Source of the DNA: Candidatus Doudnabacteria bacterium
GTDB lineage: Bacteria; Patescibacteriota; Doudnabacteria; UBA920
NCBI GenBank assembly: GCA_038203095.1
Contig: JBBREH010000002.1
Span: 5,904 to 69,903 of the forward strand
Direction of reading: 5' to 3'
DNA length: 64,000 bases
Both the position numbers and the translations under genes were made by a program. The notes below the pieces were generated by a model that was given only the letters and a program-made list of their open reading frames with translations, did no database searches and was not told where the DNA came from. The stretch's first letter is position 1, and every line of letters begins with the position of its first letter. This document shows, piece after piece, positions 4,930 through 62,794 of this stretch.

Positions 4930-5093
4930 TTTACGATTAACAATTTCCGCTAAGGGGTCCGCCTTTGGCGGAAACTTATTCCTAAGTTAATCGTCAATTG
5001 TCAATCGTTAATCGTTCTAGCCTATCATACCAAAATTCTACCAACTTTGCTATAATTAAAATATATAAAATCAACAATAAAAATAATCCATTT

Positions 5094-5966
5094 ATGTCTT
5101 TATTCAAAGATCAAGTCAAGCTGGGCTTTCAAGAAGCCGAACTTGAAACCCAAAAAACTTTAGCCGGGCTGCCACCTCTTATTAGGTGGCTTGCGATAAT
5201 TTTTACCATCATGATTATTCCGGTTTACTATTCTGCAAAAATTATTTCCCGAAAAATCTTAACAAGTAGATACTCCCAAGGGGCCCTTTACGCCAAACCA
5301 AGTTTTACTAACCCAAAAAAACTAATTATTTCCAATGTGAACGTTGTGACCACCGGTAGCGGAAGTTTTGCCGCCGGAGTCAAAATCAAAAATCCAAATT
5401 TAGATTTGTCTTTAGAAAACCTGCCCTTTTCATTTAAATTTTATAATGAAAAAAAACAACTAGTTTATACTTATGAAGATAAGTTATTTTTACTGCCCGA
5501 CGAGGAAAAATATGTCACCGTTCCGACGTTCACAGCAATAGAAAACGTTTCCTTTGCAAACTTTGAAATACCAAATGAGCTTCCCTGGCAAAAAAAATTA
5601 ACAATTCCCAAAGTCCAGTTTTCTACTTCCGTACCCAACTCATACCAGCAAAGTTCGCCGGAGGCGTTTATAGTTGAAGGGGACTTTACTAACGACAGTC
5701 CTTATACTTTAAAAAGTGTTCGTTTGACATTTATTATTTTTGGCGCACAAGACAAAATTGTTGGCATAAGCCAGCGGGATGAGTTCACTGTAAGCCCTTT
5801 TGAAAGACGAGCGTACAAACAACTTTGGCCTTTAATTTCTGCTCCGGACATAAGCCGGGTTGAGGTCAGGGCCGAAACCAATACCTTAAATTCCAACAAT
5901 CTGGTTATTAATTCAAGCCCTTCACCAGCTTCCGATTTAAGCCGACCGAGGAATAAAAATAGATAA
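5094..5966 (+). CDS. Hypothetical membrane-anchored protein (one N-terminal TM, then a beta-rich extracytoplasmic part)
   Basis: Long ORF. The internal Met at 5094 (MSLFKDQ...) lies after an AT-rich putative promoter; no recognisable family. Confidence 0.4.
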   Translation: MSLFKDQVKLGFQEAELETQKTLAGLPPLIRWLAIIFTIMIIPVYYSAKIISRKILTSRYSQGALYAKPSFTNPKKLIISNVNVVTTGSGSFAAGVKIKNPNLDLSLENLPFSFKFYNEKKQLVYTYEDKLFLLPDEEKYVTVPTFTAIENVSFANFEIPNELPWQKKLTIPKVQFSTSVPNSYQQSSPEAFIVEGDFTNDSPYTLKSVRLTFIIFGAQDKIVGISQRDEFTVSPFERRAYKQLWPLISAPDISRVEVRAETNTLNSNNLVINSSPSPASDLSRPRNKNR

Positions 5967-15123: not shown

Positions 15124-15927
15124 TTGGGGCTCAAATTGGATATTGGAAATTGGATATTGGAAATTCCTCCCTTGTCCTTCCAAATTATCCCCAATCTCAT
15201 ATTTATTTTATCAATTCTAGGGATTTTTGTAATTGTCCTTAGGCATTTGCCGGATGCGGCAGTTGAATCGGAAGAATCAAACACAAATATTCAACCACAT
15301 ACTAGGCTTTTAGCCAAAGGACTCCCTGCCCAAGCAATATCTAAAATCAGAGTTAGTGCAACATTTACGGTTAAAAAATTTTGGTTTTTTATTTTAGAGG
15401 CCAAAGATCTTAGACCTCATTCCGCTGCCGGTTATAAAATAAAAAAAATGTTTACCAGCCGGCTTACCAAACCCAAAGCTTTACCTGTGCCTCTGCAACA
15501 ATTAGTTAATCCTAAAAATGAGCAATTTTATCTTGACCAAATAAAAATTGAGCCTAAGAATCTTAAACTTTACGATGACTTAGGAAAATATTATTTAGAG
15601 CAGGAAAATTTAAATGATGCTAGAGATATTTACCATTATTTAGTTAACCACGAACCGGCCAATCCGGATTTCCATGCGCGCTTAGGATTTTGCTTCTTCA
15701 AAAGTCAAAATTACGAGAAAGCTGCCCAAGCTTACGGTAAAGCCATTGCCCTTGATTCTACCCAGCCAAACAGGTATTATAACTTAGGCTTAAGCCAGGA
15801 AGCTGCCGGCGAACTAGATGATGCCGAAAGAGCGTTTAAAAAGGCTCTGGAACTAGAACCGCAAAATCCCAAATATTTGTACTCTTTAGAAAAGCTCGCG
15901 AATTCACGATTAACAATTCACGATTAA
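15124..15927 (+). CDS. TPR-repeat protein with N-terminal TM segment (start uncertain)
   Basis: C-terminal half contains canonical TPR units (AAQAYGKAIALDSTQPNRYYNLG..., AERAFKKALELEPQNPKY). Confidence 0.5.
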   Translation: MGLKLDIGNWILEIPPLSFQIIPNLIFILSILGIFVIVLRHLPDAAVESEESNTNIQPHTRLLAKGLPAQAISKIRVSATFTVKKFWFFILEAKDLRPHSAAGYKIKKMFTSRLTKPKALPVPLQQLVNPKNEQFYLDQIKIEPKNLKLYDDLGKYYLEQENLNDARDIYHYLVNHEPANPDFHARLGFCFFKSQNYEKAAQAYGKAIALDSTQPNRYYNLGLSQEAAGELDDAERAFKKALELEPQNPKYLYSLEKLANSRLTIHD

Positions 15928-22828: not shown

Positions 22829-23020
22829 ATGGCTTACACCACATCACAGTTTCGCATAAAATTAATAGGCTATAGACTCCTAAATAAAGCAGAATTTGGT
22901 TTTTCATTTTGGACGCCTAAGATCTTAGACCTCACTGCGCCAAAAGAAAATAATATAAAAAAGATTTTACAAAAATTGGTTTTCTATTCAGCGGTTAAAA
23001 TCACAAAAGGCAAGACATGA
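22829..23020 (+). CDS. Small basic hypothetical ORF (63 aa from ATG), 4-nt ATGA overlap with next ORF
   Basis: ORF only. Preceded by several perfect palindromes (22668-22692 AACTTGTGCAAA-a-TTTGCACAAGTT; GTCAAAT-n6-ATTTGAC). Confidence 0.25.
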   Translation: MAYTTSQFRIKLIGYRLLNKAEFGFSFWTPKILDLTAPKENNIKKILQKLVFYSAVKITKGKT

Positions 23021-23321: not shown

Positions 23322-23481
23322 AGGACTTACGCTTTTGAGCCAATTTCGAGGAATTTTGTGAGGATGTTTGGAAACGTAGCCAGCTACGGCGACAAATACC
23401 GCAGCAAAATAACGAAGAAATTGGCCAAAGCTGCTTTGAACCGGCGGAGCCGGATTCAAAAGCGGCAAGAGCGTAAGTCCT
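23322..23481 (+). repeat. Family A element copy 1 (~160 nt, TIR AGGACTTACGC/GCGTAAGTCCT)
   Basis: About 80% identical over the 5' 110 nt to 42352..42513, with different 3' hairpins. The ORF 23283..23483 over it is spurious. Confidence 0.7.
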
Positions 23482-29335: not shown

Positions 29336-29375
29336 CTCTACCGAATACGGAGAGGGCATACAGATATACGGACTG

Positions 29376-29540
29376 ATTAGACTTGTAGCGAATTAATTTT
29401 TTAAATCAAGATTTGATATTTTAGTCAAAATCCCAATTAAAAATTTTGATGTTTAACTTTAGTTAAGCGGAAAAATTATTAACAAGAGTTTGGTAAAAGA
29501 GCAATTTTTGGACAAAAATTAATTCACTACAAGGCTATTA
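29376..29540 (+). mobile_element. Family B MITE copy 1 (~165 bp, TIR ATTAGACTTGTAGCGAATTAATTTTTT)
   Basis: Shares the core AAAATTTTGATGTTTAAC(T/C)T(T/A)AGTTAAGCGGAAAAATT with copies at 53683..53843 and 49997..50158. Flanked on both sides by inverted GAATACGGAGAGG / CCTCTCCGTAT units. Confidence 0.7.
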
Positions 29541-29634
29541 GTGCTAAGCGGCCTCTCCGTATATCCGTACCGTTTCCGTATTCCGTAAAGTTAATAAAAA
29601 ACAATTAATCAACAGAATAATTAAATTAATCACC

Positions 29635-30885: not shown

Positions 30886-31317
30886 ATGAAAAAAATCATC
30901 TTGTTTTCCGCCAGCATTATCTTACTTGCCGCAGGGTGTTCTAATTCTCAGCCGGCTGCCGCCCCTCTCGTTAAAAACCCACCGCAGTCTGAAACCAAAC
31001 AACCGGCTCCGGATACAAATGAAGCCGGAGTAAAAAGCTTCACTATTGTAGCCAAAAACTTTTCTTTCACCCCAAATGAAATAAAAGTTAAAAAGGGCGA
31101 TAAGGTAAAAATTGTATTTCAAAATAATGACGGTTTTCATGACTGGGTAATTGATGAATTTAGCGCCAAAACCCCAAGAGTCAAATCCGGCGACAGCGCC
31201 ACAGTGGAATTTACCGCGGACAAAACCGGAACTTTTGAATACTACTGCTCCGTAGGTGAACATCGGGCAATGGGCATGAAGGGCAATTTAATTGTTGAGA
31301 ATCCATTTGAAAAATAA
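30886..31317 (+). CDS. Cupredoxin (plastocyanin/azurin-like type-1 copper) lipoprotein
   Basis: Lipobox LLAAGCS; type-1 Cu ligands H (FHDWVI) ... CSVGEHRAMGM (C-x2-G-x-H-x2-M). Confidence 0.6.
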   Translation: MKKIILFSASIILLAAGCSNSQPAAAPLVKNPPQSETKQPAPDTNEAGVKSFTIVAKNFSFTPNEIKVKKGDKVKIVFQNNDGFHDWVIDEFSAKTPRVKSGDSATVEFTADKTGTFEYYCSVGEHRAMGMKGNLIVENPFEK

Positions 31318-31501
31318 TTTTGAAGCGAAATTGCAGGATTTCGAGACGATTGGCAGAAATAAATTTTGTCGTGCCAAAGGTACATCCGCCTTTGGCGGAA
31401 CGTTTAACCTGAGTTAAGCGGATAAATTTTTTCGGGCAAGCGGCCGAAAGGCTGTAATTGCAGCCAAAAGGATTTTTAAAATGGGTTCTGAGTAGAGTTT
31501 T

Positions 31502-39631: not shown

Positions 39632-39683
39632 GTAGCGTGCCCATTTATGGGCGTTTCCTGGACACCGATTACGGCCACGCTAC
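39632..39683 (+). repeat. Family D double-hairpin element copy 1 (GTAGCGTG-CCCATTTATGGGCG-...-CACGCTAC)
   Basis: 22-nt identity with copies at 62743..62794 and 60133..60186. The ORFs 39622..39825 and 39526..40023 over it are spurious. Confidence 0.7.
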
Positions 39684-42351: not shown

Positions 42352-42513
42352 AGGACTTACGCCTTTGGTCGAGTACGAGGCATTTTGCGAGGATTTTTGG
42401 AGACGTAGTTTGACTACGGCGACAAAAACCGCAGCAAAATAACGAAGTAATCGGCCAAACCCCTTGTGGGTTTCATCAATATTTTAAATATTTAGATGAA
42501 AGGCGTAAGTCCT
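42352..42513 (+). repeat. Family A element copy 2
   Basis: TIR AGGACTTACGCC/GGCGTAAGTCCT; core conserved with copy 1; 3' hairpin ttcatc-aatattttaaatatt-tagatgaa differs from copy 1. Confidence 0.7.
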
Positions 42514-42609: not shown

Positions 42610-44325
42610 TTGATTTCTAACCATATGAATCAATCTCAAAAACCTGTAACCTTAATAATTCTTGACGGCTGGGGATACCGCGAGGGCAAGGAGCATAACG
42701 CCATTTTGGAGGCGCAAACGCCGTTTTTTGACCATTTGTGGCAAAACTATCCCCACACCTTGCTTAACGCCAGCGAACAGCACGTGGGCTTGCCGGGAGG
42801 CACTATTGGCAACAGCGAAGTTGGCCATATGACTATGGGTGCGGGGCGGGTGATAGATACCGATTTGGTCAGAATATCAAAAGCAATGGAGTCCGGCGAA
42901 TTTAACACCAACCCGGCTTTTGCCGCGCTTTTTGAACACGTAAAAAATAACCATTCAACTTTGCATGTAATGGGTTTGGTGAGTGATGGAGGGGTGCACA
43001 GCCACCGAGAACATTTGCACGGCTTTTTAACCGCGGCCAAAGAAGCGGGCATAGAAAAAGTTGCCATTCACGCTTTTACGGATGGGCGGGATGTGGCGCC
43101 GCAGAGCGGGGGGAAATATTTGCAGGATTTGGAAAAGGTTATTGCCAATTTGGGCATAGGCCACATTGCCACCGCCTCGGGCAGATATTTTGCCATGGAC
43201 CGCGATAAAAATTGGCATCGCACCAAACTTGTGGAAGACGCGATTTTTGAGGGTATAGGCAAAATGTCCCTTGCAAATAAACCGTCCGATGTTATTAAAG
43301 AGCTTTATAAAACAGGGGAGTTGGATGAGTTGCTTGAACCCCTAATTTTTTTGGACGACAAAGGCAAGGCTATGCCGGTCCAAAAAAATGACGGCATTTT
43401 CTTTTTTAATTTTAGAAGCGATAGACCTCGCCAGCTAACGCAAAAAATTGTCGAGCGCGCCAAAAAACATAACTTGTATTTCGTAACGCTAACGGAATAC
43501 GATCCCGCGCTTGAAAGCGTAGTGGCGTTCCCGCCAAATAAAATAGAGACTACTTTAGCCGCGGAAATTAGCCAAGCCGGCCTGACTCAGTCCCATATTG
43601 CCGAAACCGAAAAATACGCGCACGTAACTTACTTTTTTAACGGCGGCAAACAGGAACCGCATAAAAATGAACATCACTTTTTAATAGAAAGCCGGCGCGA
43701 CATAAAAACGCACGACGAAGCGCCGGAAATGCGCGCGAGAGAGATTGCCGATAAATCCATTGAACGGCTAAACGCCGGCGACGACTTTCTGGTAATTAAC
43801 TTTGCCAACGCCGATATGGTCGGACATACAGCTAATAAACCTGCAATTATTACTGCCGTAGAAACCGTGGACCGCGAGCTAAAGCGGGTTGTCGATGTTG
43901 TACTGGCCAAAGGCGGCATCGCCCTAATTACCGCCGACCACGGCAACGCCGAACTAAATTTTGATGCCTCAACCGGCCACAAACACACCGCGCACACACT
44001 GAACCAAGTCCCGTTTATAATTGCTGAAAAAAGTGGAAAGTGGGTAGTGAGTAGTGAAAAGTCGAAAACCATCAGCGTGCCCCCTCCTCTCCCTACCGAA
44101 GGTCCGACGAAGTCCGCCTTAGGCGGACGAAGTTGGATGGGAGAGGACGTCGCCTCAGCGACAGGTGAGGGTGCAGTTTTCCCCTCCCTTGATGGGAGGG
44201 GCGAGGGGAGGGTGACTCTCAACTCTTCAAGAAGCTTAGCCGATATTGCCCCGACTACCCTAGCCCTAATGCAAATAAAAAAACCGTCCGCAATGACGGG
44301 GGAGAGTTTGATTGTTTCTGATTAA
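42610..44325 (+). CDS. gpmI: 2,3-bisphosphoglycerate-independent phosphoglycerate mutase with ~60-aa in-frame GC-rich insertion near the C-terminus
   Basis: ILDGWG, GNSEVGHMT, ADHGN motifs. Insert ...EKSGKWVVSSEKSKTISVPPPLPTEGPTKSALGGRSWMGEDVASATGEGAVFPSLDGRGEGRVTLNSSRS precedes the conserved LADIAPT..L.L..I.KP..MTG.SLI C-terminus. Confidence 0.9.
   Translation: MISNHMNQSQKPVTLIILDGWGYREGKEHNAILEAQTPFFDHLWQNYPHTLLNASEQHVGLPGGTIGNSEVGHMTMGAGRVIDTDLVRISKAMESGEFNTNPAFAALFEHVKNNHSTLHVMGLVSDGGVHSHREHLHGFLTAAKEAGIEKVAIHAFTDGRDVAPQSGGKYLQDLEKVIANLGIGHIATASGRYFAMDRDKNWHRTKLVEDAIFEGIGKMSLANKPSDVIKELYKTGELDELLEPLIFLDDKGKAMPVQKNDGIFFFNFRSDRPRQLTQKIVERAKKHNLYFVTLTEYDPALESVVAFPPNKIETTLAAEISQAGLTQSHIAETEKYAHVTYFFNGGKQEPHKNEHHFLIESRRDIKTHDEAPEMRAREIADKSIERLNAGDDFLVINFANADMVGHTANKPAIITAVETVDRELKRVVDVVLAKGGIALITADHGNAELNFDASTGHKHTAHTLNQVPFIIAEKSGKWVVSSEKSKTISVPPPLPTEGPTKSALGGRSWMGEDVASATGEGAVFPSLDGRGEGRVTLNSSRSLADIAPTTLALMQIKKPSAMTGESLIVSD
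44075..44215. repeat. GC-rich palindromic (RPE-like) insertion inside gpmI. Contains a CCCCTCCC-loop-GGGAGGGG-C-N-AGGGGAGGGT module nearly identical to one inside fmt.
   Basis: Hairpins cctctccc/gggagagg, gtccgcc-tta-ggcggac, gtcgc-ctca-gcgac, cccctccc-ttgat-gggagggg. Compare 56849..56880. Confidence 0.65.
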
Positions 44326-48713: not shown

Positions 48714-49991
48714 ATGGAACCACTAGCCAATAAAATCCGCCCAACATCGCTAAACGAATTTGTCGGGCAACAACATTTGGTGGGGGAAGGCAAACCTTTA
48801 AGACAGGCGATGGAAAATCGTCATCTTTTTTCTTTTATTTTATGGGGACCACCCGGGGTGGGCAAGACCACGCTGGCGCGGATTTACGCTAACGCCATGG
48901 GCGCGGATTACTTTGAACTGTCCGCTGTGTCCGCGGGCAAAGACGATATTAGAAAAATAATTTCAAATGACGCCCTGCCGGCTGGCGAAGAAATACCAAA
49001 AAAGAAACCAAAAGTAATATCGGCATATAATTTACCAAATGCGCTTTCATTGGATAGATTTAAAGAGTCAATTAATAAGTTAAATTCGGACCAAGACAAA
49101 CAGCCGATAAATCGGCTAACTACAGACGGGGGCAAACCAAAAATTTTATTTTTAGACGAAATCCACCGTTTTAACAAAGCTCAGCAGGACTTTTTGCTTC
49201 CGTATGTGGAAACGGGAAAACTGACTCTCATCGGCGCCACCACAGAGAATCCGTCATTTGAAGTTATTTCCGCTTTGCTTTCGCGCTGCCGGGTATTTGT
49301 ACTCAATGAATTAACAGCGGAAGAAATGCGCGCAGTAATCAGTCAAACTAAAATCGAGATGGCTGATGATGCAAAAGAGTGGCTAATTGCCATGGCCAAT
49401 GGCGACGCGCGCGCGGCCATAACCATGCTGGAAAACACCTTAAGTTTGTACCGCCAAATTACGGTTGAAAATTTAAAAAACGCACTCCAATCCAAACACC
49501 TGCGCTACGATAAAAAGGGCGAGGAACATTACAATATTATTTCAGCTTTTATAAAATCGATGAGAGCTTCACAGCCCGACGCGGCGCTCTACTATTTAGC
49601 CAGAATGGTGGAAGCGGGGGAGGATCCAAAATTCATTGCCCGTAGGATGGTGGTGTTTGCCAGCGAAGATGTCGGCCTTGCCCAGCCAACCGCCTTGGTT
49701 GTTGCCAATGCCGTGTTTGAAGCCTGTCAAAAAATTGGCTACCCTGAATGCGCTATCAATCTTGCCCACGGTGCAGCATATCTCTCACAGTCTAAAAAAG
49801 ACCGCTCCGTCTACAACGCCTTACGGTCTGCCCAGGCAGATGTAGAGGCGCTCGGCAATTTACCCACCCCTCTTAAACTGCGAAACGCACCCACCAAATT
49901 AATGAAAAGTCTCGGCTATGGTGAGGGTTACGAAAAATATGATAATAATGATTATTTTCCCGAGGAGTTAAAAGGAAAAAAATATTTGTGA
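48714..49991 (+). CDS. rarA: Replication-associated recombination protein A (RarA/MgsA) with ~55-aa insertion between Walker A and B; ends with TGA
   Basis: GPPGVGKTT (Walker A), ILFLDEIHRFNK (Walker B/sensor), ARMVEAGEDP C-terminal domain. Confidence 0.85.
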   Translation: MEPLANKIRPTSLNEFVGQQHLVGEGKPLRQAMENRHLFSFILWGPPGVGKTTLARIYANAMGADYFELSAVSAGKDDIRKIISNDALPAGEEIPKKKPKVISAYNLPNALSLDRFKESINKLNSDQDKQPINRLTTDGGKPKILFLDEIHRFNKAQQDFLLPYVETGKLTLIGATTENPSFEVISALLSRCRVFVLNELTAEEMRAVISQTKIEMADDAKEWLIAMANGDARAAITMLENTLSLYRQITVENLKNALQSKHLRYDKKGEEHYNIISAFIKSMRASQPDAALYYLARMVEAGEDPKFIARRMVVFASEDVGLAQPTALVVANAVFEACQKIGYPECAINLAHGAAYLSQSKKDRSVYNALRSAQADVEALGNLPTPLKLRNAPTKLMKSLGYGEGYEKYDNNDYFPEELKGKKYL

Positions 49992-49996
49992 TATAA

Positions 49997-50158
49997 TAGA
50001 CTTGTTGCTTAATAATTTTTCGCCCAAAATGTGTCCTTTCGCCAAAACCTTGTTAAAAATTTTTTCGCTTAACTTAGGTTAAACATCAAAATTTTTAGCT
50101 GCGGCCTTGTCAGAAATAACACATTTTAGATCAAAAAAGTTATTTAACAACAAGTCTA
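49997..50158 (-). mobile_element. Family B MITE copy 3 (inverted orientation)
   Basis: The reverse complement aligns end-to-end with 53683..53843 (TIR TAGACTTGTTGTTAAATAACTTTTTT). Read-through of its TIR gives the spurious MSEITHFRSKKLFNNKS N-terminus of ORF 50107. Confidence 0.7.
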
Positions 50159-50166
50159 ATTTATTC

Positions 50167-51087
50167 ATGTCGTTTTTTCCTCTTATTCTTACAATATTAG
50201 GCCTTGGTTTGTTTGAAACCGTGTCGTCTGTAGACAATGCGGTAATTAACGCCGAGGTTTTAGGCACTATGGGCCCCAAAGCCAGGCGCTGGTTTACCGT
50301 TTGGGGCATGCTTTTTGCTGTCTTTGCCGTACGAGGACTTTTACCCTGGCTAATAGTTTGGCTAGCAACCCCCGGCCTTGGTCCCATAACCGCAATTACC
50401 GCTTCATTTTCATCTAATCCTGAAGTATTAACTGCCGTAGAAAAAGCCGCGCCTTTTTTGCTAATGGCCGGTGGAGTATTTTTAATTTTTTTGTTTCTGC
50501 ACTGGTTATTTTTGGAACCCAAAAATTTTGGCATAAGCGGTGAAAAATTTTTTTACCGTCAGGGCGTCTGGTTTTACGCCGTGGTATCATTGGCGCTTTC
50601 TGTAATAGTTTGGCAGTCTCTTAAAATAGATGCTTATTTAGCTTTTGCCGCTGTGGTTGGGTCAACAACATTTTTTATTACCCACGGATTTAAGGAAAAT
50701 GCCGCTTCTCAGGAAAAAACTTTAATGCGTACGGGGTTATCTGACTTAAGCAAAGTTTTTTATTTAGAAGTGATTGATGCGACATTCTCCATAGACGGCG
50801 TACTAGGCGCCTTTGCTTTTACTCTTTCTGTTCCTCTAATTTTATTGGGCAATAGCTTGGGAGCACTGCTCGTTCGCCAGTTAACTATTAGCAATATAGA
50901 TACTATAAAAAAATATGCCTACTTAAAAAACGGCGCTATGTACTCTATTTTATTTCTAGGCTTAATTATGCTTGCGGACGGATTTGGACACCACATACCT
51001 CAATGGCTATCGCCCGTGATTACCTTTACCATTATTAGCTATTTTTTTATTAAATCTAAAGCTCAATTAAAAAATGAGCCTGCTTGA
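50167..51087 (+). CDS. TerC-family / DUF475 integral membrane protein
   Basis: ETVSSVDNAVINA and LEVIDATFSIDGVLGAF motifs; 7-8 TM. Start set at MSFFPL after the MITE. Confidence 0.6.
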   Translation: MSFFPLILTILGLGLFETVSSVDNAVINAEVLGTMGPKARRWFTVWGMLFAVFAVRGLLPWLIVWLATPGLGPITAITASFSSNPEVLTAVEKAAPFLLMAGGVFLIFLFLHWLFLEPKNFGISGEKFFYRQGVWFYAVVSLALSVIVWQSLKIDAYLAFAAVVGSTTFFITHGFKENAASQEKTLMRTGLSDLSKVFYLEVIDATFSIDGVLGAFAFTLSVPLILLGNSLGALLVRQLTISNIDTIKKYAYLKNGAMYSILFLGLIMLADGFGHHIPQWLSPVITFTIISYFFIKSKAQLKNEPA

Positions 51088-53027: not shown

Positions 53028-53468
53028 ATGCAAAATTCACTTACCAAGATCCATCTTGAAACAAAAAAACAATTTGAAATTGTGGATTTGACCGGTCAAA
53101 TAATGAAAGCTGTGGTTGACTCAAAAATCCAAAATGGTTTAGTCCTTATTTTTTGCCCACACACAACGGCCGGAATTAGAATCAACCACAACGAACCTCT
53201 ACTAATGCAGGATTTTATGAAGGCTCTATACCGCTTGGTGCCAATAAACCAAAGCTACAGCCACGATTTATTTGAAGTCAGACAAAACGTCGCTCCTAAT
53301 GAGCGCAGCAACGGCCACGCGCATGTTAAATCGTTTTTACTTGGCTCATCCGAAACGCTTCCAATTGATAAAGGCAGTTTGCTTTTAGGCCAAAGGCAAA
53401 GCATTTTTTTTATTGAACTGGAGGGAGGCAGAATGCGCGAAGTTATTATTAAAATTATTGGCGAATAA
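53028..53468 (+). CDS. YjbQ/UPF0047 family protein (secondary thiamine-phosphate synthase-like)
   Basis: LVLIFCPHTTAGIRINHNE...NGHAHVKSFLLGSSETLPIDKGSLLLGQRQSIFFIELEG. Confidence 0.7.
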   Translation: MQNSLTKIHLETKKQFEIVDLTGQIMKAVVDSKIQNGLVLIFCPHTTAGIRINHNEPLLMQDFMKALYRLVPINQSYSHDLFEVRQNVAPNERSNGHAHVKSFLLGSSETLPIDKGSLLLGQRQSIFFIELEGGRMREVIIKIIGE

Positions 53469-53545
53469 ATCCAGGCGCCTTCCTGCGGGGAATTACACCC
53501 CGCAGGAAGGCTATAAAATCCATTCATCCCCGCAGCAAGCTACGG
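53462..53545 (+). repeat. GC-rich palindromic unit at the 3' end of yjbQ (AATAAATCCAGGC...CCTTCCTGCGGGG-aattacac-CCCGCAGGAAGG), homologous to 54602..54724
   Basis: ~70-nt alignment between the two copies, each starting right at a stop codon (GAATAA / TTCAATAA). Confidence 0.55.
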
Positions 53546-53682
53546 AGTACGGACTGAATACGGATATACGGAGGGAGTACTTGAGCATTTTGAATTTCGT
53601 ATATCCGTATGCTCCCTCTCGGTACTTCCGTAAAGAATCTTAAGGTGGTCGATCTTAAGACAGGTAACAAAGATAAAATAAT

Positions 53683-53843
53683 AGACTTATTGTTTAATAA
53701 CTTTTTTGATTCAAAATCTGGTATTTCAGACAAAACCGATGTTTAAAATTTTGATGTTTAACCTAAGTTAAGCGGAAAAATTTTAAACAAGGTTTTGACG
53801 AAATAACAGATTTTAGGCGAAAAATTATTAAACAACAGGTCTA
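53683..53843 (+). mobile_element. Family B MITE copy 2
   Basis: TIRs TAGACTTATTGTTTAATAACTTTTTT / AAAAATTATTAAACAACAGGTCTA. The spurious ORF 53524..53733 (MSEIPDFESKKLLNNKS) arises from its TIR. Confidence 0.7.
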
Positions 53844-53908: not shown

Positions 53909-54589
53909 ATGGATTACCCAACCTATCAGGTTATGGTAGTTAGCGCGTTACAAGATTTGTTTTTTAAAACAGTTAGCTACCTCCCAAATTTAATTGCGGC
54001 AATTATTGTTGTAATTATTGGCTGGCTTTTAGCAATATTTTTAAGCTCACTGGTAAGTAAGGTTTTAAGTACAATTAAAATTGACCACCTAGCAAACCAA
54101 TTGGGATTACAAAACCTCTCGGAAAAAACCGGCAAAAAACTTAGTATTTCCACTTTTTGTGGCTGGCTAGTAAAATGGTTTTTCTTTTTGGGCAGCTTTA
54201 TTGCCGCGGCTGACATTTTAAATCTACCGGGAGTCTCAAGCTTTCTTTACCAGGATGTTTTGGGCTACGCCGGGCACGTAATTGTCGCGGTCGCAATTTT
54301 GCTTCTGGGCCTCCTGGCAGCCGACTTTTTCTCGGGTTTAATTTCAACAACGGTAAAAGCCAGCGGACTCAACACCGGACATTCTTTGGGCGCTGTTGCC
54401 AAGTGGTCTATAATTGTCTTTGCCGTTATTTCAGCGCTGTCTCAATTGCAAATTGCCTCGGCGTTTTTGCAGGACTTGTTCAGGGCCGTTGTTGCTATGT
54501 TGGCTATTGCCGGCGGTCTGGCTTTTGGCCTCGGCGGACAGGCTCACGCCAAAAAAGTTTTGGACGGACTAGAAGACAATTTTAAGTGA
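53909..54589 (+). CDS. Membrane protein with conserved TM-helix repeats (CmpX/MscS-N-terminal-like); hypothetical
   Basis: Repeated amphipathic helices ...LxNLxxxIxxxVxAAxILLLG... Confidence 0.35.
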   Translation: MDYPTYQVMVVSALQDLFFKTVSYLPNLIAAIIVVIIGWLLAIFLSSLVSKVLSTIKIDHLANQLGLQNLSEKTGKKLSISTFCGWLVKWFFFLGSFIAAADILNLPGVSSFLYQDVLGYAGHVIVAVAILLLGLLAADFFSGLISTTVKASGLNTGHSLGAVAKWSIIVFAVISALSQLQIASAFLQDLFRAVVAMLAIAGGLAFGLGGQAHAKKVLDGLEDNFK

Positions 54590-54601
54590 TTAGGAAAATT
54601 C

Positions 54602-54724
54602 AATAAATCCAGGCATTTTCCTACGAGGTACTAAACCCCGCAGAAAGACTATAATTCCATTTATTCCCGCCGTCCGTCAGCCTAGGCTGACGGACGGGGT
54701 ATTTTGGAGGGAGCCTGGATAAAA
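54602..54724 (+). repeat. GC-rich palindromic unit (homolog of 53462..53545) bounded by ATCCAGGC/GCCTGGAT, containing the perfect 28-nt palindrome CCGTCCGTCAGCCTAGGCTGACGGACGG
   Basis: Read directly. Confidence 0.55.
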
Positions 54725-54857
54725 AACATCAAAATTTGTTTTGATTGACTGTCTCATCCGCCTCCGGCGGACAATTTTTGTCCAAAGAGCCCATTCGGCA
54801 ACAGTTCCAATAAAATGGCGCGAAATTTGTGGTAAAGGTTTTGTTTTATCCTAAACA

Positions 54858-59801: not shown

Positions 59802-61190
59802 ATGAAAGTAGATATTGCCGGACTAAAAATTGACGCGACCACCAAAATAGATTTACTGGATGCTGTTTTGGCGCGGATTAAAAATAATCAAAAAACCTTT
59901 GTCACCACGCCGTATTCAGAGTTTTTGTACCGAGCTTTTTTGGATCCAAAATTGCTGGAAACTTTTAACCGAGCCGATTTTGCCGTAGCCGACGGGATTG
60001 GGATTTTTTGGGCAAAAAGATATTTAGAAATTCCTCTTTCGGCCAAAAGCTTCTGGGGCAAAATTTTGCAGGCGTTTTGGCAGATTATTTACAGCTTGGC
60101 TGCGATAATCTTGTACTCCAGATTTATTTATGATAGCGTGCCCATTCACGGGCGTCTCGAATCGCCGATAAATCGGCACACTACACAGCCTGATATACCG
60201 GAGAAAATCGTCGGTGCGGATTTAATTTGGGACTTAGCCAAATTGGCGGCTAATAATAACTTATCAATCTATCTTTTGGGTGGCTTTGGTAACACTCCGG
60301 AACTTGCGGCGGAAAAACTAACGACTTGTTATATTCACAGCCATAAACGAAGCAAGTCGCTTAAAATTGCGGGGTGGTCAAATAAAAATCCGAATGACTC
60401 ATCGGTGATTGCGGATGTCAATTCATCTGTGGCAGATATTTTGCTGGTTGCTTACGGACCTGTGAACCAAGAAAAATGGATTGTAGATAATTTACCCAAG
60501 TTAAATATTAAACTCGCGATTGGCGTAGGCGGGAGCCTTGATTACCTCGCGGGCATTAAATCCGCGCCGCCAAAATTTATTCGCTACGGCGGACTGGAAT
60601 GGCTTTGGCGGCTAATTACCCAACCATACCGCTTGAAAAGAATTTGGCAGGCAACTTTTGGATTAATAAGCAAAACTTTACTTCACAAAATTTATCAAAT
60701 TATGCCACTTAGAAAAAATGCCGTATGCGTTATTTTGAATAAAAATAAATCCATTCTTGTTTGCAAGCGAAACCCCAAACCTCAAGAAACCGACGCGGTC
60801 GGCGAACCGGCTGCCAAATTTCTAAACTATTGGCAACTCCCCCAAGGCGGAGTTGGTGAAGATTTGGATATAATAAGCGGCGCAAGAAGGGAAGCGCTTG
60901 AGGAAGTTAGTTTAAATGATTTGGATCTTCTTTACGTTTCACAAAAACATTATGACTACCAATTTCCTTTAAGCTGGCAAAGAATCTTTAAAAAGAATTA
61001 CCGATACCGCGGGCAAAGCCAAAATATTATTTATTTCAAATTTTCTGGAAAGGATGAAGAAGTAACAGTAGATCGAAAAGAATTTGTAGACTACCGGTGG
61101 GTAGAGGCAAACCAACTTTTCAAAATCATCCATCCCGAGAAACTTAACTTAACCAAAATTGTTGTTGATGATTTGAAACAACTGGTTTAA
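59802..61190 (+). CDS. Fusion protein: WecB/TagA/CpsF-family (GT26) glycosyltransferase + C-terminal NUDIX hydrolase. Carries an in-frame family D repeat at 60133..60186.
   Basis: N-terminal ...FVTTPYSEFLYRAFLDPKLLETFNRADFAVADGIGIFWA (GT26). C-terminal Nudix box LPQGGVGEDLDIISGARREALEEVSL. Confidence 0.6.
   Translation: MKVDIAGLKIDATTKIDLLDAVLARIKNNQKTFVTTPYSEFLYRAFLDPKLLETFNRADFAVADGIGIFWAKRYLEIPLSAKSFWGKILQAFWQIIYSLAAIILYSRFIYDSVPIHGRLESPINRHTTQPDIPEKIVGADLIWDLAKLAANNNLSIYLLGGFGNTPELAAEKLTTCYIHSHKRSKSLKIAGWSNKNPNDSSVIADVNSSVADILLVAYGPVNQEKWIVDNLPKLNIKLAIGVGGSLDYLAGIKSAPPKFIRYGGLEWLWRLITQPYRLKRIWQATFGLISKTLLHKIYQIMPLRKNAVCVILNKNKSILVCKRNPKPQETDAVGEPAAKFLNYWQLPQGGVGEDLDIISGARREALEEVSLNDLDLLYVSQKHYDYQFPLSWQRIFKKNYRYRGQSQNIIYFKFSGKDEEVTVDRKEFVDYRWVEANQLFKIIHPEKLNLTKIVVDDLKQLV
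60133..60186 (+). repeat. Family D element copy inside a coding sequence, in-frame (encodes DSVPIHGRLESPINRHTT)
   Basis: ATAGCGTGCCCATTCACGGGCG-TCTCGAAT-CGCCGATAAATCGGC-ACACTACAC versus the 62743..62794 copy (reverse complement) GTAGCGTGCCCATTTATGGGCG-ACTAAGATA-GCCGATAAATCGGC-GCGCTACAC. Confidence 0.7.
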
Positions 61191-61219: not shown

Positions 61220-62746
61220 ATGATCAACCCAATAAAAACCGTCCGTACACGCTTTGCGCCCAGCCCCACCGGCTTTGTGCACATTGGTAGTTTGCGCACT
61301 GCGCTATTTAGTTTTTTATATGCCCGCAAAAATCATGGAGCGCACATTTTACGTATAGAGGACACCGACCAAAATAGGCTGGTAGAAGGCGCGGCGGAAA
61401 ATTTAGTTAAAGTCATGCGTGAGATGGGCATAGAATTTGACGAGGGCTACTACTTAGCCGATGACGGATCACTAAAAGAAAGAGGAAATTTTGGCCCCTA
61501 TTTACAATCAAAGCGTTTGGATTTATACCAAAAACACGCGACGGAACTCGTAGAAAAGGGGAGTGCATATTATTGCTTTTGCAGCCAGGAAAGACTGGAT
61601 GAACTTCGAAAAGAACAAACGGCTTTAAAAAAGCCGGCAATGTATGACAGACACTGCAAAAATTTATCCGAAGATGAAATTAAATTGAAACTGATTGAAA
61701 TTAAGGGGCAGAAAAAAAACCCCGTAGTGCGCTTTGCCATTCCACAGGAAGGTCAAACCACAATCCACGATTTAATTTACGGTGATATTACTTATGAAAA
61801 TAAAAACCTAGACGACCAGGTGATTTTAAAATCTGACGGTTTCCCCACCTACCATCTGGCTGTGGTCGTTGACGACCACTATATGCAAATTAGCCACGTT
61901 ATTCGCGGTGAAGAATGGATACCTTCTACGCCCAAACATTTGCTAATTTACAAAGCTTTAGGCTGGGAGCCGACGCAGTTTGCCCACCTGCCTCTAATAT
62001 TAAACCCGGATAAATCCAAACTTTCCAAGCGCCAGGGCGACGTGGCGGTGGAAGATTTTTTAAAGCACGGGTATTTAAAAGAGGGCTTGTTAAATTTTGT
62101 GGCTTTTTTGGGCTGGAACCCTAAAACAGACCAAGAGCTTTTTTCGCTTACAGATTTAATAGAGCAATTCGATTTTAGCAAAGTCAATAAAGCCGGCGCC
62201 GTATTTGACGACAACAAGCTGGACTGGTTTAACTCACAATATATTAAAAAACTGACGCCGACCGATTTAGCAAACCTGCTCAAGCCTTATTGGCAGCAAT
62301 CGGGAATTAGTTTTCAAAATTTTTCCGATGAATATCTTGCCACTGTTGCCAAACTTGAACAGGAACGCTTAAAAAAACTTTCCGAGATAGGGGAGAGGAC
62401 TGCTTACTTTTTTAAAGCTCCTGATTATGATGCTAAATTACTCATTTGGAAGAAATCAGACGCTGGGGATGCAAAACAAAAATTGTCTGAGCTTGCAAAT
62501 TTACTATCAACTCTGACTGATGATAAATTTTCCAACTCCAATCTAGAAACGGAAATCAAAAAATTTATTGCGGAAAAAAAATATGACAACGGCTCCGTTC
62601 TTTGGCCGCTAAGAACCGCGCTCACCGGCCAAGAAAAAAGCCCCGGCCCTTTCGAAGTTTGCGCCACGTTGGCTTTAGGCTTGGGCAAAAAAGAGGTCCT
62701 AAAACGTCTTGAGACAGCGGTTTCAAAATTGACAGTTGATGTGTAG
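61220..62746 (+). CDS. gltX: Glutamate--tRNA ligase
   Basis: RFAPSPTGFVHIGSLRTALF (HIGH), KLSKR (KMSKS), anticodon-binding C-terminus. Confidence 0.9.
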   Translation: MINPIKTVRTRFAPSPTGFVHIGSLRTALFSFLYARKNHGAHILRIEDTDQNRLVEGAAENLVKVMREMGIEFDEGYYLADDGSLKERGNFGPYLQSKRLDLYQKHATELVEKGSAYYCFCSQERLDELRKEQTALKKPAMYDRHCKNLSEDEIKLKLIEIKGQKKNPVVRFAIPQEGQTTIHDLIYGDITYENKNLDDQVILKSDGFPTYHLAVVVDDHYMQISHVIRGEEWIPSTPKHLLIYKALGWEPTQFAHLPLILNPDKSKLSKRQGDVAVEDFLKHGYLKEGLLNFVAFLGWNPKTDQELFSLTDLIEQFDFSKVNKAGAVFDDNKLDWFNSQYIKKLTPTDLANLLKPYWQQSGISFQNFSDEYLATVAKLEQERLKKLSEIGERTAYFFKAPDYDAKLLIWKKSDAGDAKQKLSELANLLSTLTDDKFSNSNLETEIKKFIAEKKYDNGSVLWPLRTALTGQEKSPGPFEVCATLALGLGKKEVLKRLETAVSKLTVDV

Positions 62747-62794
62747 CGCGCCGATTTATCGGCTATCTTAGTCGCCCATAAATGGGCACGCTAC
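62743..62794 (-). repeat. Family D element copy (reverse orientation) immediately after gltX
   Basis: See 39632..39683. The ORF 62763..62951 (-) is spurious. Confidence 0.7.

What the first reader, a model, noticed from the sequence alone, without database searches (positions are those of the whole stretch)
29376..29540. Family B: AT-rich ~165-bp MITE in three full copies (one inverted) plus a core fragment; generates look-alike spurious ORFs
Copies at 29376-29540 (+), 53683-53843 (+) and 49997-50158 (-) share 20-27 bp terminal inverted repeats (TAGACTTGTTGTTAAATAACTTTTTT) and an internal core AAAATTTTGATGTTTAACCTAAGTTAAGCGGAAAAATT. The core contains the palindrome TTAAC-N4-GTTAA.
- A core-only fragment lies at about 31425-31460.
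- All copies sit in short intergenic spacers next to gene ends (macB permease, rarA/TerC-like, yjbQ).
- The TIR read-through produces near-identical false N-termini (MSEITHFRSKKLFNNKS / MSEIPDFESKKLLNNKS) in ORFs 50107 and 53524, a trap for automated annotation.
Basis: seen in the sequence. Interest (0 to 1): 0.6.

Follow-up and report, generated by a model that had tools for sequence, protein, structure and literature searches.

The report
Hairpin MITE of an IS5-family transposon
The repeat is a real, non-coding ~160-bp mobile element (a MITE) that carries the same end sequences as a 1.05-kb IS5-family insertion sequence found in groundwater ultra-small (CPR) bacteria. It is an ordinary kind of element in an unusual host, with an oddly conserved, strand-asymmetric hairpin interior.

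Summary
Three ~160-bp copies (29379-29536 +, 53683-53842 +, 49998-50157 -) align end to end, and each folds into one long imperfect hairpin. The "core fragment" is really the centre of a fourth, full-length 194-bp copy of a sister subfamily (31297-31490). A fifth, truncated copy lies at 54724-54809.

The same element occurs in up to 27 copies per genome. Apart from one chance hit, it was found only in Patescibacteria/CPR MAGs. Its 19-bp terminal repeat, AGACYTGTTGCTTAATAAT, also bounds 1031-1073-bp elements in groundwater metagenomes. These encode a ~305-aa DDE_Tnp_4/HTH_Tnp_4 (IS5-family, PIF/Harbinger-like) transposase.

Both the IS and the MITEs are flanked by a 3-bp duplication, AAT or ATT (44/75 versus 22 expected). 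So this is a non-autonomous MITE mobilised in trans. No transposase lies in this window.

Two features go beyond a textbook MITE:
- The interior is unrelated to the IS, yet it keeps a covarying full-length hairpin.
- The apex (GAUGUUUA...UAAGCGGA, with a tandem G·A) is shared by subfamilies that have different ends.

One G-rich strand always folds about 16 kcal/mol better than its complement. That strand lies antisense to neighbouring genes 2:1. Verdict: new member of a known kind, of moderate interest.

The parts
29379..29536 (+). MITE copy A (subfamily 1, the most diverged). It is flanked by ATT (29376-29378) and ATT (29537-29539). It sits between the MacB-type permease gene (ends 29335) and a 141-aa gene (starts 29635), inside the loop of a TACGGA-rich hairpin.
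   Evidence: flanks read; context
53683..53842 (+). MITE copy B (subfamily 1). Flanks are AAT (53680-53682) and AGT (53843-45). It lies between the UPF0047/YjbQ gene (ends 53468) and an MscS-like gene (starts 53909).
49998..50157 (-). MITE copy C (subfamily 1, inverted). It has an exact 3-bp duplication, AAT (49995-49997) and AAT (50158-50160). It fills almost the whole spacer between the RarA stop (49989-49991) and the TerC ATG (50167).
31297..31490 (+). Full-length copy of sister subfamily 3. It has the same core (31402-31420) but different arms and termini. It carries a nested 34-nt insert (31367-31400) that includes the GC palindrome TCCGCCTTTGGCGGA. Its left end supplies the last codons and the stop of the cupredoxin gene (ends 31317).
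54724..54809 (-). Truncated 5' half of a subfamily-4 copy, broken inside the core after TTGATGTTT. It has the nested GC palindrome TCCGCCTCCGGCGGA at 54757-54771.
53756..53774 (+). Apical core GTTTAAC-N4-GTTAAGCG of copy B. The same motif is at 29451-29469 (+), 50066-50084 (-) and 31402-31420 (+). With its flanks it forms the UGAUGUUUAAC-loop-GUUAAGCGGA stem, which has two U·G pairs and a tandem G·A.
50107..50166 (+). Spurious 5' extension of the TerC/DUF475 ORF, read out of the MITE arm (LSEITHFRSKKLFNNKSNLF). The real start is the ATG at 50167.
53524..53733 (-). Spurious 69-aa ORF that starts inside copy B with the look-alike N-terminus LSEIPDFESKKLLNNKS.

Best explanation
Family B is a non-autonomous DNA transposon (MITE). 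It consists of about 160 bp of non-coding DNA bounded by the 19-24-bp terminal inverted repeat AGAC(C/T)TGTTGCTTAATAA(T).

Proposed mechanism. That repeat is the recognition end of a ~1.05-kb IS5-family (PIF/Harbinger-like) insertion sequence. The IS encodes a ~305-aa transposase with an HTH_Tnp_4 DNA-binding domain and a DDE_Tnp_4 catalytic domain. The transposase, supplied in trans, binds the two ends. It cuts the element out or copies it, then inserts it at an A(A/T)T site through a 3-bp staggered cut, which leaves the AAT/ATT duplication. Insertions that persist lie in the very short AT-rich spacers at gene ends.

What is shown:
- multi-copy dispersal;
- TIR identity with the IS;
- the transposase domains;
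- the 3-bp duplication on both MITEs and ISs;
- absence of the element at one orthologous junction.

What is inferred:
- that this transposase family is the mobiliser;
- that the three window copies are old and probably no longer mobile. They are 75-85% alike, copy A has a degenerate right end, and there is no transposase in the window.

The interior is not IS-derived. It is a full-length hairpin whose arms covary between subfamilies and whose apex is conserved. Once inserted, a copy is transcribed with its neighbours, can form a long RNA hairpin, can donate TAG/CTA stop codons or false starts, and breaks short-read assemblies.
For: Repeat family. There are 3 full copies plus 2 relatives in the window. 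A scan of 185,579 species genomes with the core gave 52 loci. All but one chance hit are Patescibacteria/CPR MAGs, and one MAG has 27 matches. Copies from other MAGs are 85-91% identical to the window copies over the full ~165 bp.

Parent IS. A metagenome scan with the TIR returned 120 loci. Ten TIR pairs are 1031-1073 bp apart, and 8 of these have an intact ORF of over 300 aa. The ORF hits PF13359 DDE_Tnp_4 at 77 bits (cut-off 24.8) and also HTH_Tnp_4. 2131 homologous protein clusters were found, some named 'transposase [Patescibacteria group bacterium]'. A chromosomal IS copy lies between housekeeping genes with AAT/AAT flanks.

TSD. In the genome set, 30/38 copies have identical AxT flanks, against a shuffle mean of 17.3 and max of 26. 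In the independent metagenome set the count is 44/75, against 22.4 ± 3.4 and max 35. For the ISs it is 7/10. Window copies A and C have exact ATT and AAT duplications.

Presence/absence. L023 has the element between two genes whose orthologues in L010 lie only about 25 bp apart.

Other points. Elements occur in both orientations. Private substitutions look neutral (GU 8 vs AC 7). There is no Rfam match. PHIS/IS5 relatives make 0-, 2- or 3-bp TSDs (PMC12730594).
Against: The IS was not found in this window or in the 346 kb around MITE copies in the genome set. Co-residence of the IS and this MITE subfamily in one genome is therefore not shown.

No exact empty site was recovered, so the TSD rests on statistics and on two of three window copies.

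The MITE shares only the 19-24-bp TIR with the IS.

Subfamilies 3 and 4 have different termini, and no IS was found for them.

The NCBIfam IS5_4 score is 58 bits, below that model's 140-bit cut-off.

Covariation along the whole hairpin, the conserved apex and the consistent strand asymmetry are not required by a cut-and-paste model.
Confidence: 0.85

Rival explanations
1. A family of structured RNA genes or cis-regulatory RNA hairpins (or single-stranded-DNA hairpins). On this view the repeats exist because the hairpin has a cellular function, and the transposon-like ends are secondary.
For: - 95.8% of cells pair, against 84.2% in shuffles and 40-60% in slid controls. 31 of 56 pairs show compensatory double changes.
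- The core-defined + strand folds better than its complement in 41/41 elements, by 15.9 kcal/mol on average. The arms alone give -3 to -10 kcal/mol in every subfamily.
- The apex with the tandem G·A is kept in subfamilies with different termini. The tandem G·A is kept even where the apical stem is replaced (L041) or changed on both sides (L026).
- There is a 2:1 orientation bias relative to genes.
Against: - The ends are identical to those of a DDE-transposase IS, and there are 3-bp duplications.
- Both orientations are common (20 of 60 sense).
- There is no conserved neighbouring gene.
- The element is present or absent at orthologous junctions.
- Recent private substitutions do not favour wobble pairs.
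- There is no Rfam family and no convincing promoter or terminator.
- Covariation of the outer ~25 bp is expected anyway, because both ends must bind one transposase.
Confidence: 0.07
2. A REP/BIME-like palindrome spread by a HUH (RAYT or IS200/IS605-type) enzyme acting on single-stranded hairpins, or an integron attC-like recombination site. The core does read RYYYAAC...GTTRRRY.
For: Hairpin architecture and strong strand asymmetry. GTTTAAC / GTTAAGC fits the attC R''/R' consensus; that consensus is recalled from memory, not tested here. Small GC palindromes are nested in some copies.
Against: - These systems make no target duplication and have no TIR shared with a DDE IS, and both features are present here.
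- The RYYYAAC/GTTRRRY boxes sit at the hairpin apex, 4 nt apart, not at its base.
- The neighbours are housekeeping genes in both orientations, not a cassette array.
- No Y1/HUH or integrase gene was seen among the 20 window ORFs scanned.
Confidence: 0.02
3. Chance similarity of AT-rich intergenic DNA or of ordinary terminators.
For: The spacers are AT-rich and lie at gene ends.
Against: Core: 4 matches vs 0.00 expected. TIR: 4 vs 0.02. Full-length nhmmer hits have E-values of 1e-40 to 1e-49. There are 85-91% identical copies in unrelated MAGs.
Confidence: 0.005

Closest known systems
IS5-family insertion sequences and their eukaryotic relatives PIF/Harbinger (PHIS superfamily), with their Tourist-type MITEs
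   Same: - The parent element is ~1.05 kb with a single ORF carrying DDE_Tnp_4 + HTH_Tnp_4.
- Short TIRs contain a CTGTT(G) motif.
- The 3-bp A/T-only target duplication falls within the 0/2/3-bp range quoted for Harbinger relatives (PMC12730594).
- The MITEs share only the TIR with the autonomous element.
   Different: - The duplicated triplet is AWT (AAT/ATT), not the TWA of canonical PIF/Harbinger (TWA is from memory).
- The host is a CPR bacterium.
- The closest annotated plasmid homologues are only 34-44% identical, and the NCBIfam IS5_4 score is below cut-off. The subgroup (ISL2, IS1031 or IS427) is therefore undetermined.
- The MITE interior is a full-length hairpin.
Bacterial hairpin MITEs: ERIC/IRU (enterobacteria), Correia/NEMIS (Neisseria), RUP (Streptococcus pneumoniae)
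   Same: All are 100-170-bp non-coding intergenic repeats that occur in both orientations, can be co-transcribed and fold into long hairpins, and sit at gene ends. This comparison rests on general knowledge.
   Different: There is no relation of ends or parent. Correia and RUP duplicate TA and are linked to IS630-like enzymes (from memory). Here the duplication is 3 bp and the parent is IS5-like. No sequence comparison with those families was run.
Coxiella burnetii QMITEs (PMC5896051, found)
   Same: A described example of MITE families in a reduced bacterial genome, discussed there for effects on proteins and small RNAs. The paper was listed in a search; only its title and abstract were read.
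   Different: The host and sequences differ, and no shared parent IS is known. The paper was not examined in detail.
REP/BIME elements with RAYT transposases
   Same: Intergenic palindromes. The 15-bp GC palindrome TCCGCCnnnGGCGGA, which is nested in some copies, resembles REPs more than the MITE itself does.
   Different: REPs are 20-40 bp and have no TIR or TSD (PMC3733652 abstract). Family B is ~160 bp with both.

Membership tests
MITE (non-autonomous TIR transposon) | Short (<~600 bp) and without coding capacity | tested here: met
   The elements are 158-194 bp. The only ORFs are run-throughs that start in the arm.
MITE (non-autonomous TIR transposon) | Terminal inverted repeats | tested here: met
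   (I15)
MITE (non-autonomous TIR transposon) | Target-site duplication of fixed length | tested here: met
   The duplication is a 3-bp AWT: 30/38 and 44/75 vs 22.4 ± 3.4. Window copies A and C are exact, and copy B has 2 of 3 bases.
MITE (non-autonomous TIR transposon) | Many dispersed copies within a genome | tested here: met
   27 core matches in MAG CAYIHW01, and 5 family members in this 64-kb window
MITE (non-autonomous TIR transposon) | TIRs shared with an autonomous element that encodes a transposase | tested here: met
   Ten ~1.05-kb elements carry the same 19-bp ends and a DDE_Tnp_4 ORF. This is not shown within the same genome as subfamily 1.
MITE (non-autonomous TIR transposon) | Empty sites in related genomes that differ by the element plus one TSD copy | tested here: inconclusive
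   The orthologous junction in L010 lacks the element present in L023, but the flanks are too diverged for base-level resolution. An exact empty-site scan found nothing.
IS5 family (parent IS) | DDE transposase of the DDE_Tnp_4 / DDE_Tnp_1 type | tested here: met
   PF13359 at 77 and 70 bits (cut-off 24.8); PF01609 at 37.6 bits for L122
IS5 family (parent IS) | Curated NCBIfam IS5 model reached | tested here: not met
   NF033581 transpos_IS5_4 scores 58.3 bits against a cut-off of 140. The element is a distant member, and its subgroup is unassigned.
IS5 family (parent IS) | Size ~0.8-1.5 kb, a single ORF, and short TIRs with a short TSD | tested here: met
   1031-1073 bp, a 304-320-aa ORF, a 19-bp TIR and a 3-bp TSD. 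The family ranges are from general knowledge and PMC12730594.
Any Rfam RNA family | Covariance-model score at or above the gathering threshold | tested here: not met
   The window contains only tRNAs at that threshold. On the elements, only generic miRNA-precursor hairpin hits appear, far below threshold.
Integron attC site | R''/R' boxes pairing at the base of the hairpin, with arrays of same-oriented cassettes next to intI | tested here: not met
   The boxes are at the apex, 4 nt apart. Orientations are mixed and the neighbours are housekeeping genes. The attC consensus is recalled from memory.
REP/BIME (RAYT-associated) | 20-40-bp palindrome without TIR or TSD | tested here: not met
   Family B is ~160 bp with a TIR and a TSD. 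The REP definition is from the PMC3733652 abstract.
ERIC / Correia / RUP | Sequence similarity to the family consensus, and a TA duplication | not tested
The duplication here is 3 bp, not TA.

The most novel reading that the evidence does not exclude
On this reading the unit under selection is the hairpin interior, not the transposon ends. A ~110-nt strand-specific hairpin with a conserved apex (tandem G·A plus two U·G) has been re-fitted several times with the ends of different IS5-like transposases (subfamilies 1/2, 3, 4 and 'type X'). It persists because it does something as single-stranded nucleic acid. Candidate roles are an RNA or lagging-strand DNA structure bound by a host or element protein, one that affects transposition efficiency, transcript fate or replication. 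That would explain three observations: the interior is more conserved than the termini across subfamilies; one G-rich strand always folds far better than its complement; and that strand lies antisense to neighbouring genes 2:1.
Probability: 0.18. Interest if true: 0.6.

Novelty: new member of a known kind. Interest (0 to 1): 0.35.

Why it matters
CPR/Patescibacteria genomes are about 1 Mb and are usually described as streamlined. Here a MITE/IS5 system reaches dozens of copies per genome, with thousands of transposase variants in groundwater and soil metagenomes.

Practical consequences:
- The element breaks assemblies. The only public contig with this RarA gene ends inside copy C.
- It creates false gene starts.
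- It supplies stop codons.
Annotators of CPR MAGs should therefore mask it.

Biologically, the family gives a clean TIR-to-transposase pairing that can be tested in vitro. It also raises a small puzzle: a covarying, strand-asymmetric hairpin whose apex is shared by MITEs with different ends. If that feature is functional, it would bear on how MITE interiors are selected.

Tried and rejected
Searches that found nothing useful:
- Exact empty-site scan of metagenomes for the RarA-TerC junction without the element: no hit.
- Core scan of viral contigs: no hit.
- Rfam at gathering and permissive thresholds: nothing but tRNAs and sub-threshold miRNA-like hairpins.
- Transposase search in the window: 20 ORFs by Pfam and tblastn with the IS transposase found none.
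- Multi-copy ORFs and solo or long-range TIR pairs in the 52 genome loci: none.
- IS partners for the subfamily-3 and -4 termini in all held loci: none. The 420-bp 'pair' at window 54389-54808 is a chance match inside the MscS-like gene.
- Look-ups of RarA and of three transposase homologues to link the IS and the MITE in one genome: only short contigs, or contigs from other MAGs.
- tblastn against plasmids to name the IS subgroup: only 34-44% 'transposase family protein' hits in cyanobacteria and others.

Ideas dropped:
- Promoter or terminator in the element: only weak consensus matches and no terminator. A -35/-10 reading of the core fails because the spacing or the key bases are wrong.
- IHF-site, attC and REP readings (see rivals).
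- Conserved synteny of subfamily 3 as a hint of a cis-regulatory RNA: no common neighbour gene.
- The TACGGA hairpin at 53541-53630 as a paralogous empty site for copy A: the loops are too different.
- A 2-bp TA duplication: TA is always present but is explained by the termini. Only the 3-bp frame beats shuffles.

Full report
1. THE OBSERVATION

The three claimed copies are real. They align end to end with 82% mean column identity. Repeat search gives B vs C at 85% over 172 nt, and A vs B and A vs C at 75% over 134 nt. Refined limits are A 29379-29536 (+), B 53683-53842 (+) and C 49998-50157 (-).

The core GTTTAAC-N4-GTTAAGCG occurs four times in the window against 0.00 expected. The terminal repeat occurs four times against 0.02 expected. 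Complementarity is not confined to 20-27 bp. Each copy folds as a single long imperfect hairpin, with DNA fold z-scores of -5.5, -6.9 and -11.1 against dinucleotide shuffles.

Pfam confirms the neighbours: MacB/FtsX permease, MgsA/RarA, TerC/DUF475 and UPF0047. The two look-alike false N-termini are reproduced. Copy C fills nearly the whole spacer between the RarA stop (49989-49991) and the true TerC ATG (50167).

One item needs correction. The 'core-only fragment' has its core at 31402-31420. It is the middle of a complete 194-bp element (31297-31490) with different arms, interrupted by a 34-nt nested insert. A truncated half-copy of yet another subfamily lies at 54724-54809 (-).

2. RELATIVES ELSEWHERE

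A scan of one genome per species (185,579 species) with the core pattern gave 52 loci. All but one chance hit come from MAGs labelled Patescibacteria, Doudnabacteria or Saccharibacteria, and one MAG (CAYIHW01) has 27 matches. The window itself is not among them. The only coding similarity to any locus is 68% nucleotide identity in the macB-like gene (L019). MITE copies from other MAGs are nevertheless 85-91% identical to the window copies over their full length.

Printing all hits in register showed at least four subfamilies. They share the ~40-nt centre but differ in their arms and termini:
- sf1: TAGACTTGTTGCTTAATAAT (the window type);
- sf2: TAGACCTGTTGCGTTTTAAT;
- sf3: TAGAACCTGTCTGAAAAATA;
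- sf4: GGGACTGTTGCCAAATG.

L050 is a chimera of sf2 outer arms and an sf1 inner arm.

Caveat: because the loci were found with the core as the pattern, the invariance of those 20 positions is partly ascertainment. Profile searches did find copies with altered cores.

3. TARGET DUPLICATION AND MOBILITY

In 38 sf1/sf2 copies, the best frame is a 3-bp A-x-T on both sides of AGAC...GTCT. It is identical in 30/38, against a shuffle mean of 17.3 and a maximum of 26.

In an independent set of 75 TIR-bounded elements from metagenomes, the 3-bp flanks match in 44, against 22.4 ± 3.4 and a maximum of 35 in 2000 shuffles. No 4- or 5-bp signal appears. The triplets are almost always AAT or ATT. Window copies A (ATT/ATT) and C (AAT/AAT) are exact, and copy B has AAT/AGT.

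Two loci from different MAGs are syntenic. L023 has the element between two genes whose orthologues in L010 lie only about 25 bp apart, with no element. The flanks are too diverged for base-level resolution, and a metagenome scan for the predicted empty RarA-TerC junction found nothing.

The same macB-to-DUF5666-like spacer holds an sf1 copy in the window and an sf3 copy in L019.

4. THE AUTONOMOUS PARTNER

Besides ~160-bp elements, ten TIR pairs are 1031-1073 bp apart. Eight of them carry an intact ORF of over 300 aa.

The ORF hits PF13359 DDE_Tnp_4 (77 and 70 bits; cut-off 24.8), HTH_Tnp_4 and, for one copy, DDE_Tnp_1. NCBIfam's IS5_4 model is matched only at 58 bits against a cut-off of 140. 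Seven of the ten ISs have identical AAT or ATT flanks.

A protein search found 2131 homologous clusters, mostly on ~1-kb contigs, as expected for a repeat. Some are named 'transposase [Patescibacteria group bacterium]'. One copy sits on a 46-kb scaffold between a 370-aa ORF of unknown function and an aminoacyl-tRNA-synthetase gene, amid housekeeping genes. It is 1054 bp long and flanked by AAT/AAT. The closest annotated plasmid homologues are 34-44% identical 'transposase family proteins'.

IS5-family elements are the prokaryotic relatives of PIF/Harbinger, whose relatives make 0-, 2- or 3-bp duplications (PMC12730594).

The MITE shares only the 19-24-bp TIR with the IS. Nothing of its interior is found in the IS. 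The same TIR also bounds other MITEs of about 50, 80, 95, 107, 145-163, 180 and 236 bp. No homologue of the transposase lies in the window or in the 346 kb of genome loci.

5. WHAT IT IS AND HOW IT WORKS

The evidence fits a non-autonomous MITE that is moved in trans by this IS5-family transposase. The two TIRs are bound, the element is inserted at AWT by a 3-bp staggered cut, and survivors are those in the tiny AT-rich spacers at gene ends. In one search, elements lie 0-40 bp from ORF ends.

The transposase-MITE pairing is inferred from identical ends and identical duplications, not from an experiment, and co-residence in one genome is not shown. The window copies are diverged (75-85%), and copy A has a degenerate right end (AAGGCT). 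They are probably old and immobile.

Visible consequences:
- false ORF starts;
- the cupredoxin gene ends inside the sf3 copy;
- the only public contig with an identical RarA protein stops about 100 bp into copy C.

6. FEATURES BEYOND A TEXTBOOK MITE

(a) Whole-length covariation. On 38 distinct elements from all subfamilies, RNAalifold predicts one hairpin of 56 pairs, 31 of them with compensatory double changes. 95.8% of cells are paired, against 84.2% in shuffles (0/500) and 40-60% when partners are slid. For the outer ~25 bp this is expected, since both ends must bind one protein. For the interior it is not.

(b) Conserved apex. UGAUGUUUAAC-loop-GUUAAGCGGA forms a stem with two U·G pairs and a tandem G·A, and its loop is free to vary. 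L026 carries a double change in the apical stem (AAC/GTT to ACC/GGT). L041 has an unrelated apical stem but keeps the tandem G·A. A second ~160-bp MITE type ('type X') keeps GATGTTTA...TAAGCGGA around a different apical stem.

(c) Strand asymmetry. The core-defined + strand folds better than its complement in 41/41 elements, by 15.9 kcal/mol on average. The arms alone give -3 to -10 kcal/mol in each subfamily. The stable strand is the G-rich one (G 1113 vs C 737), and other MITE types with this TIR behave the same way. Private substitutions show no such bias (GU 8 vs AC 7). The asymmetry is therefore a property of the founders rather than something visibly maintained copy by copy.

(d) Orientation. 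Between co-directional genes, the stable strand is antisense 21:11 in the genome loci and 19:9 in the metagenome loci. The pooled count is 40:20, two-sided p = 0.013. Caveats: gene calls are crude longest-ORF calls, the p-value is uncorrected, and transcription cannot be separated from replication direction.

I regard (a) to (d) as observed but unexplained. The most economical reading is that founders are selected for a stable hairpin on one strand, and that strong hairpins in mRNA, or on one replication template, are mildly counter-selected.

7. RIVALS

A stand-alone RNA gene family is unlikely. The ends and duplications are those of a DDE IS, both orientations are common, there is no conserved neighbour, and there is no Rfam match.

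REP/RAYT or attC-like readings fail for three reasons. Both a TIR and a TSD are present. The RYYYAAC/GTTRRRY-like boxes sit at the apex rather than at the base of the hairpin. The context is housekeeping genes.

Chance is excluded.

8. NOVELTY

Full-text searches found no description of MITEs in Patescibacteria/CPR or Doudnabacteria. The kind of element is well known: an IS5/PIF-type MITE, and a hairpin intergenic repeat like ERIC or Correia. I therefore rate it a new member of a known kind. It has a modestly interesting twist in the conserved, strand-asymmetric interior and in the host lineage.

Noticed in passing
window 4958, 9286, 9301, 12284, 31385, 36426, 36513, 36528, 44113, 54757 (each 15 bp): A separate 15-bp GC-rich palindrome, TCCGCC-NNN-GGCGGA, occurs 10 times vs 0.04 expected. 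It is often in tandem pairs. It is nested inside MITE copies here (31385, 54757) and in other genomes (L010, L030, L032, L034, L035, L042), and a longer variant, CCTGCCTGCCGGCAGGCAGG, appears in L026, L037, L064, L080 and L140. It behaves like a tiny REP-like insertion. The copy at 44113 lies inside ORF 42610-44325.
   Followed up: partly
window 29340-29372 with 29550-29590, and 53541-53630: TACGGA-rich hairpin repeats lie downstream of the macB-like and UPF0047 genes (I9: 33 nt, 82%). MITE copy A sits in the apical loop of one of them.
   Followed up: partly
window 53464-53516 and 54602-54654: A 53-nt direct repeat (81%) containing a GC-rich stem (CCTGCGGGG...CCCCGCAGG) follows immediately after two genes. 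It looks terminator-like (D9).
   Followed up: no
window 60134-60187 / 62740-62793, and 39633-39657: A 54-nt inverted pair (83%) brackets the 61220-62746 ORF, with a third partial copy at 39633. It is made of two short GC hairpins (I3 and D12).
   Followed up: no
window 23384-23429 / 42414-42459, and 15380-15425 / 22895-22940: Two further two-copy repeats of 46 nt, at 93% and 87% identity (D11 and D13). Their nature is unknown.
   Followed up: no
L019 2060-2224 vs window 29379-29536: The orthologous spacer between the macB-like gene and the DUF5666-like gene holds a subfamily-3 element in L019 and a subfamily-1 element in the window. This could be an insertion hot spot or replacement by recombination through the shared core.
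   Followed up: partly
L050 3609-3768: A chimeric element: subfamily-2 outer arms with a subfamily-1 inner right arm. This suggests recombination between subfamilies.
   Followed up: no
L053 (Logan SRR19962014_227237, 7.6 kb): The only public contig that encodes an identical RarA protein ends about 100 bp past the gene, inside MITE copy C. This is an assembly break at the repeat, and it identifies the likely source sample.
   Followed up: partly
L061 609-1834: A 107-bp MITE with the same TIRs lies directly next to an IS copy (transposase at 863-1765) on one metagenome contig.
   Followed up: no
window 4998-5966 (+): A 322-aa ORF with no Pfam family at E <= 1e-5.
   Followed up: no
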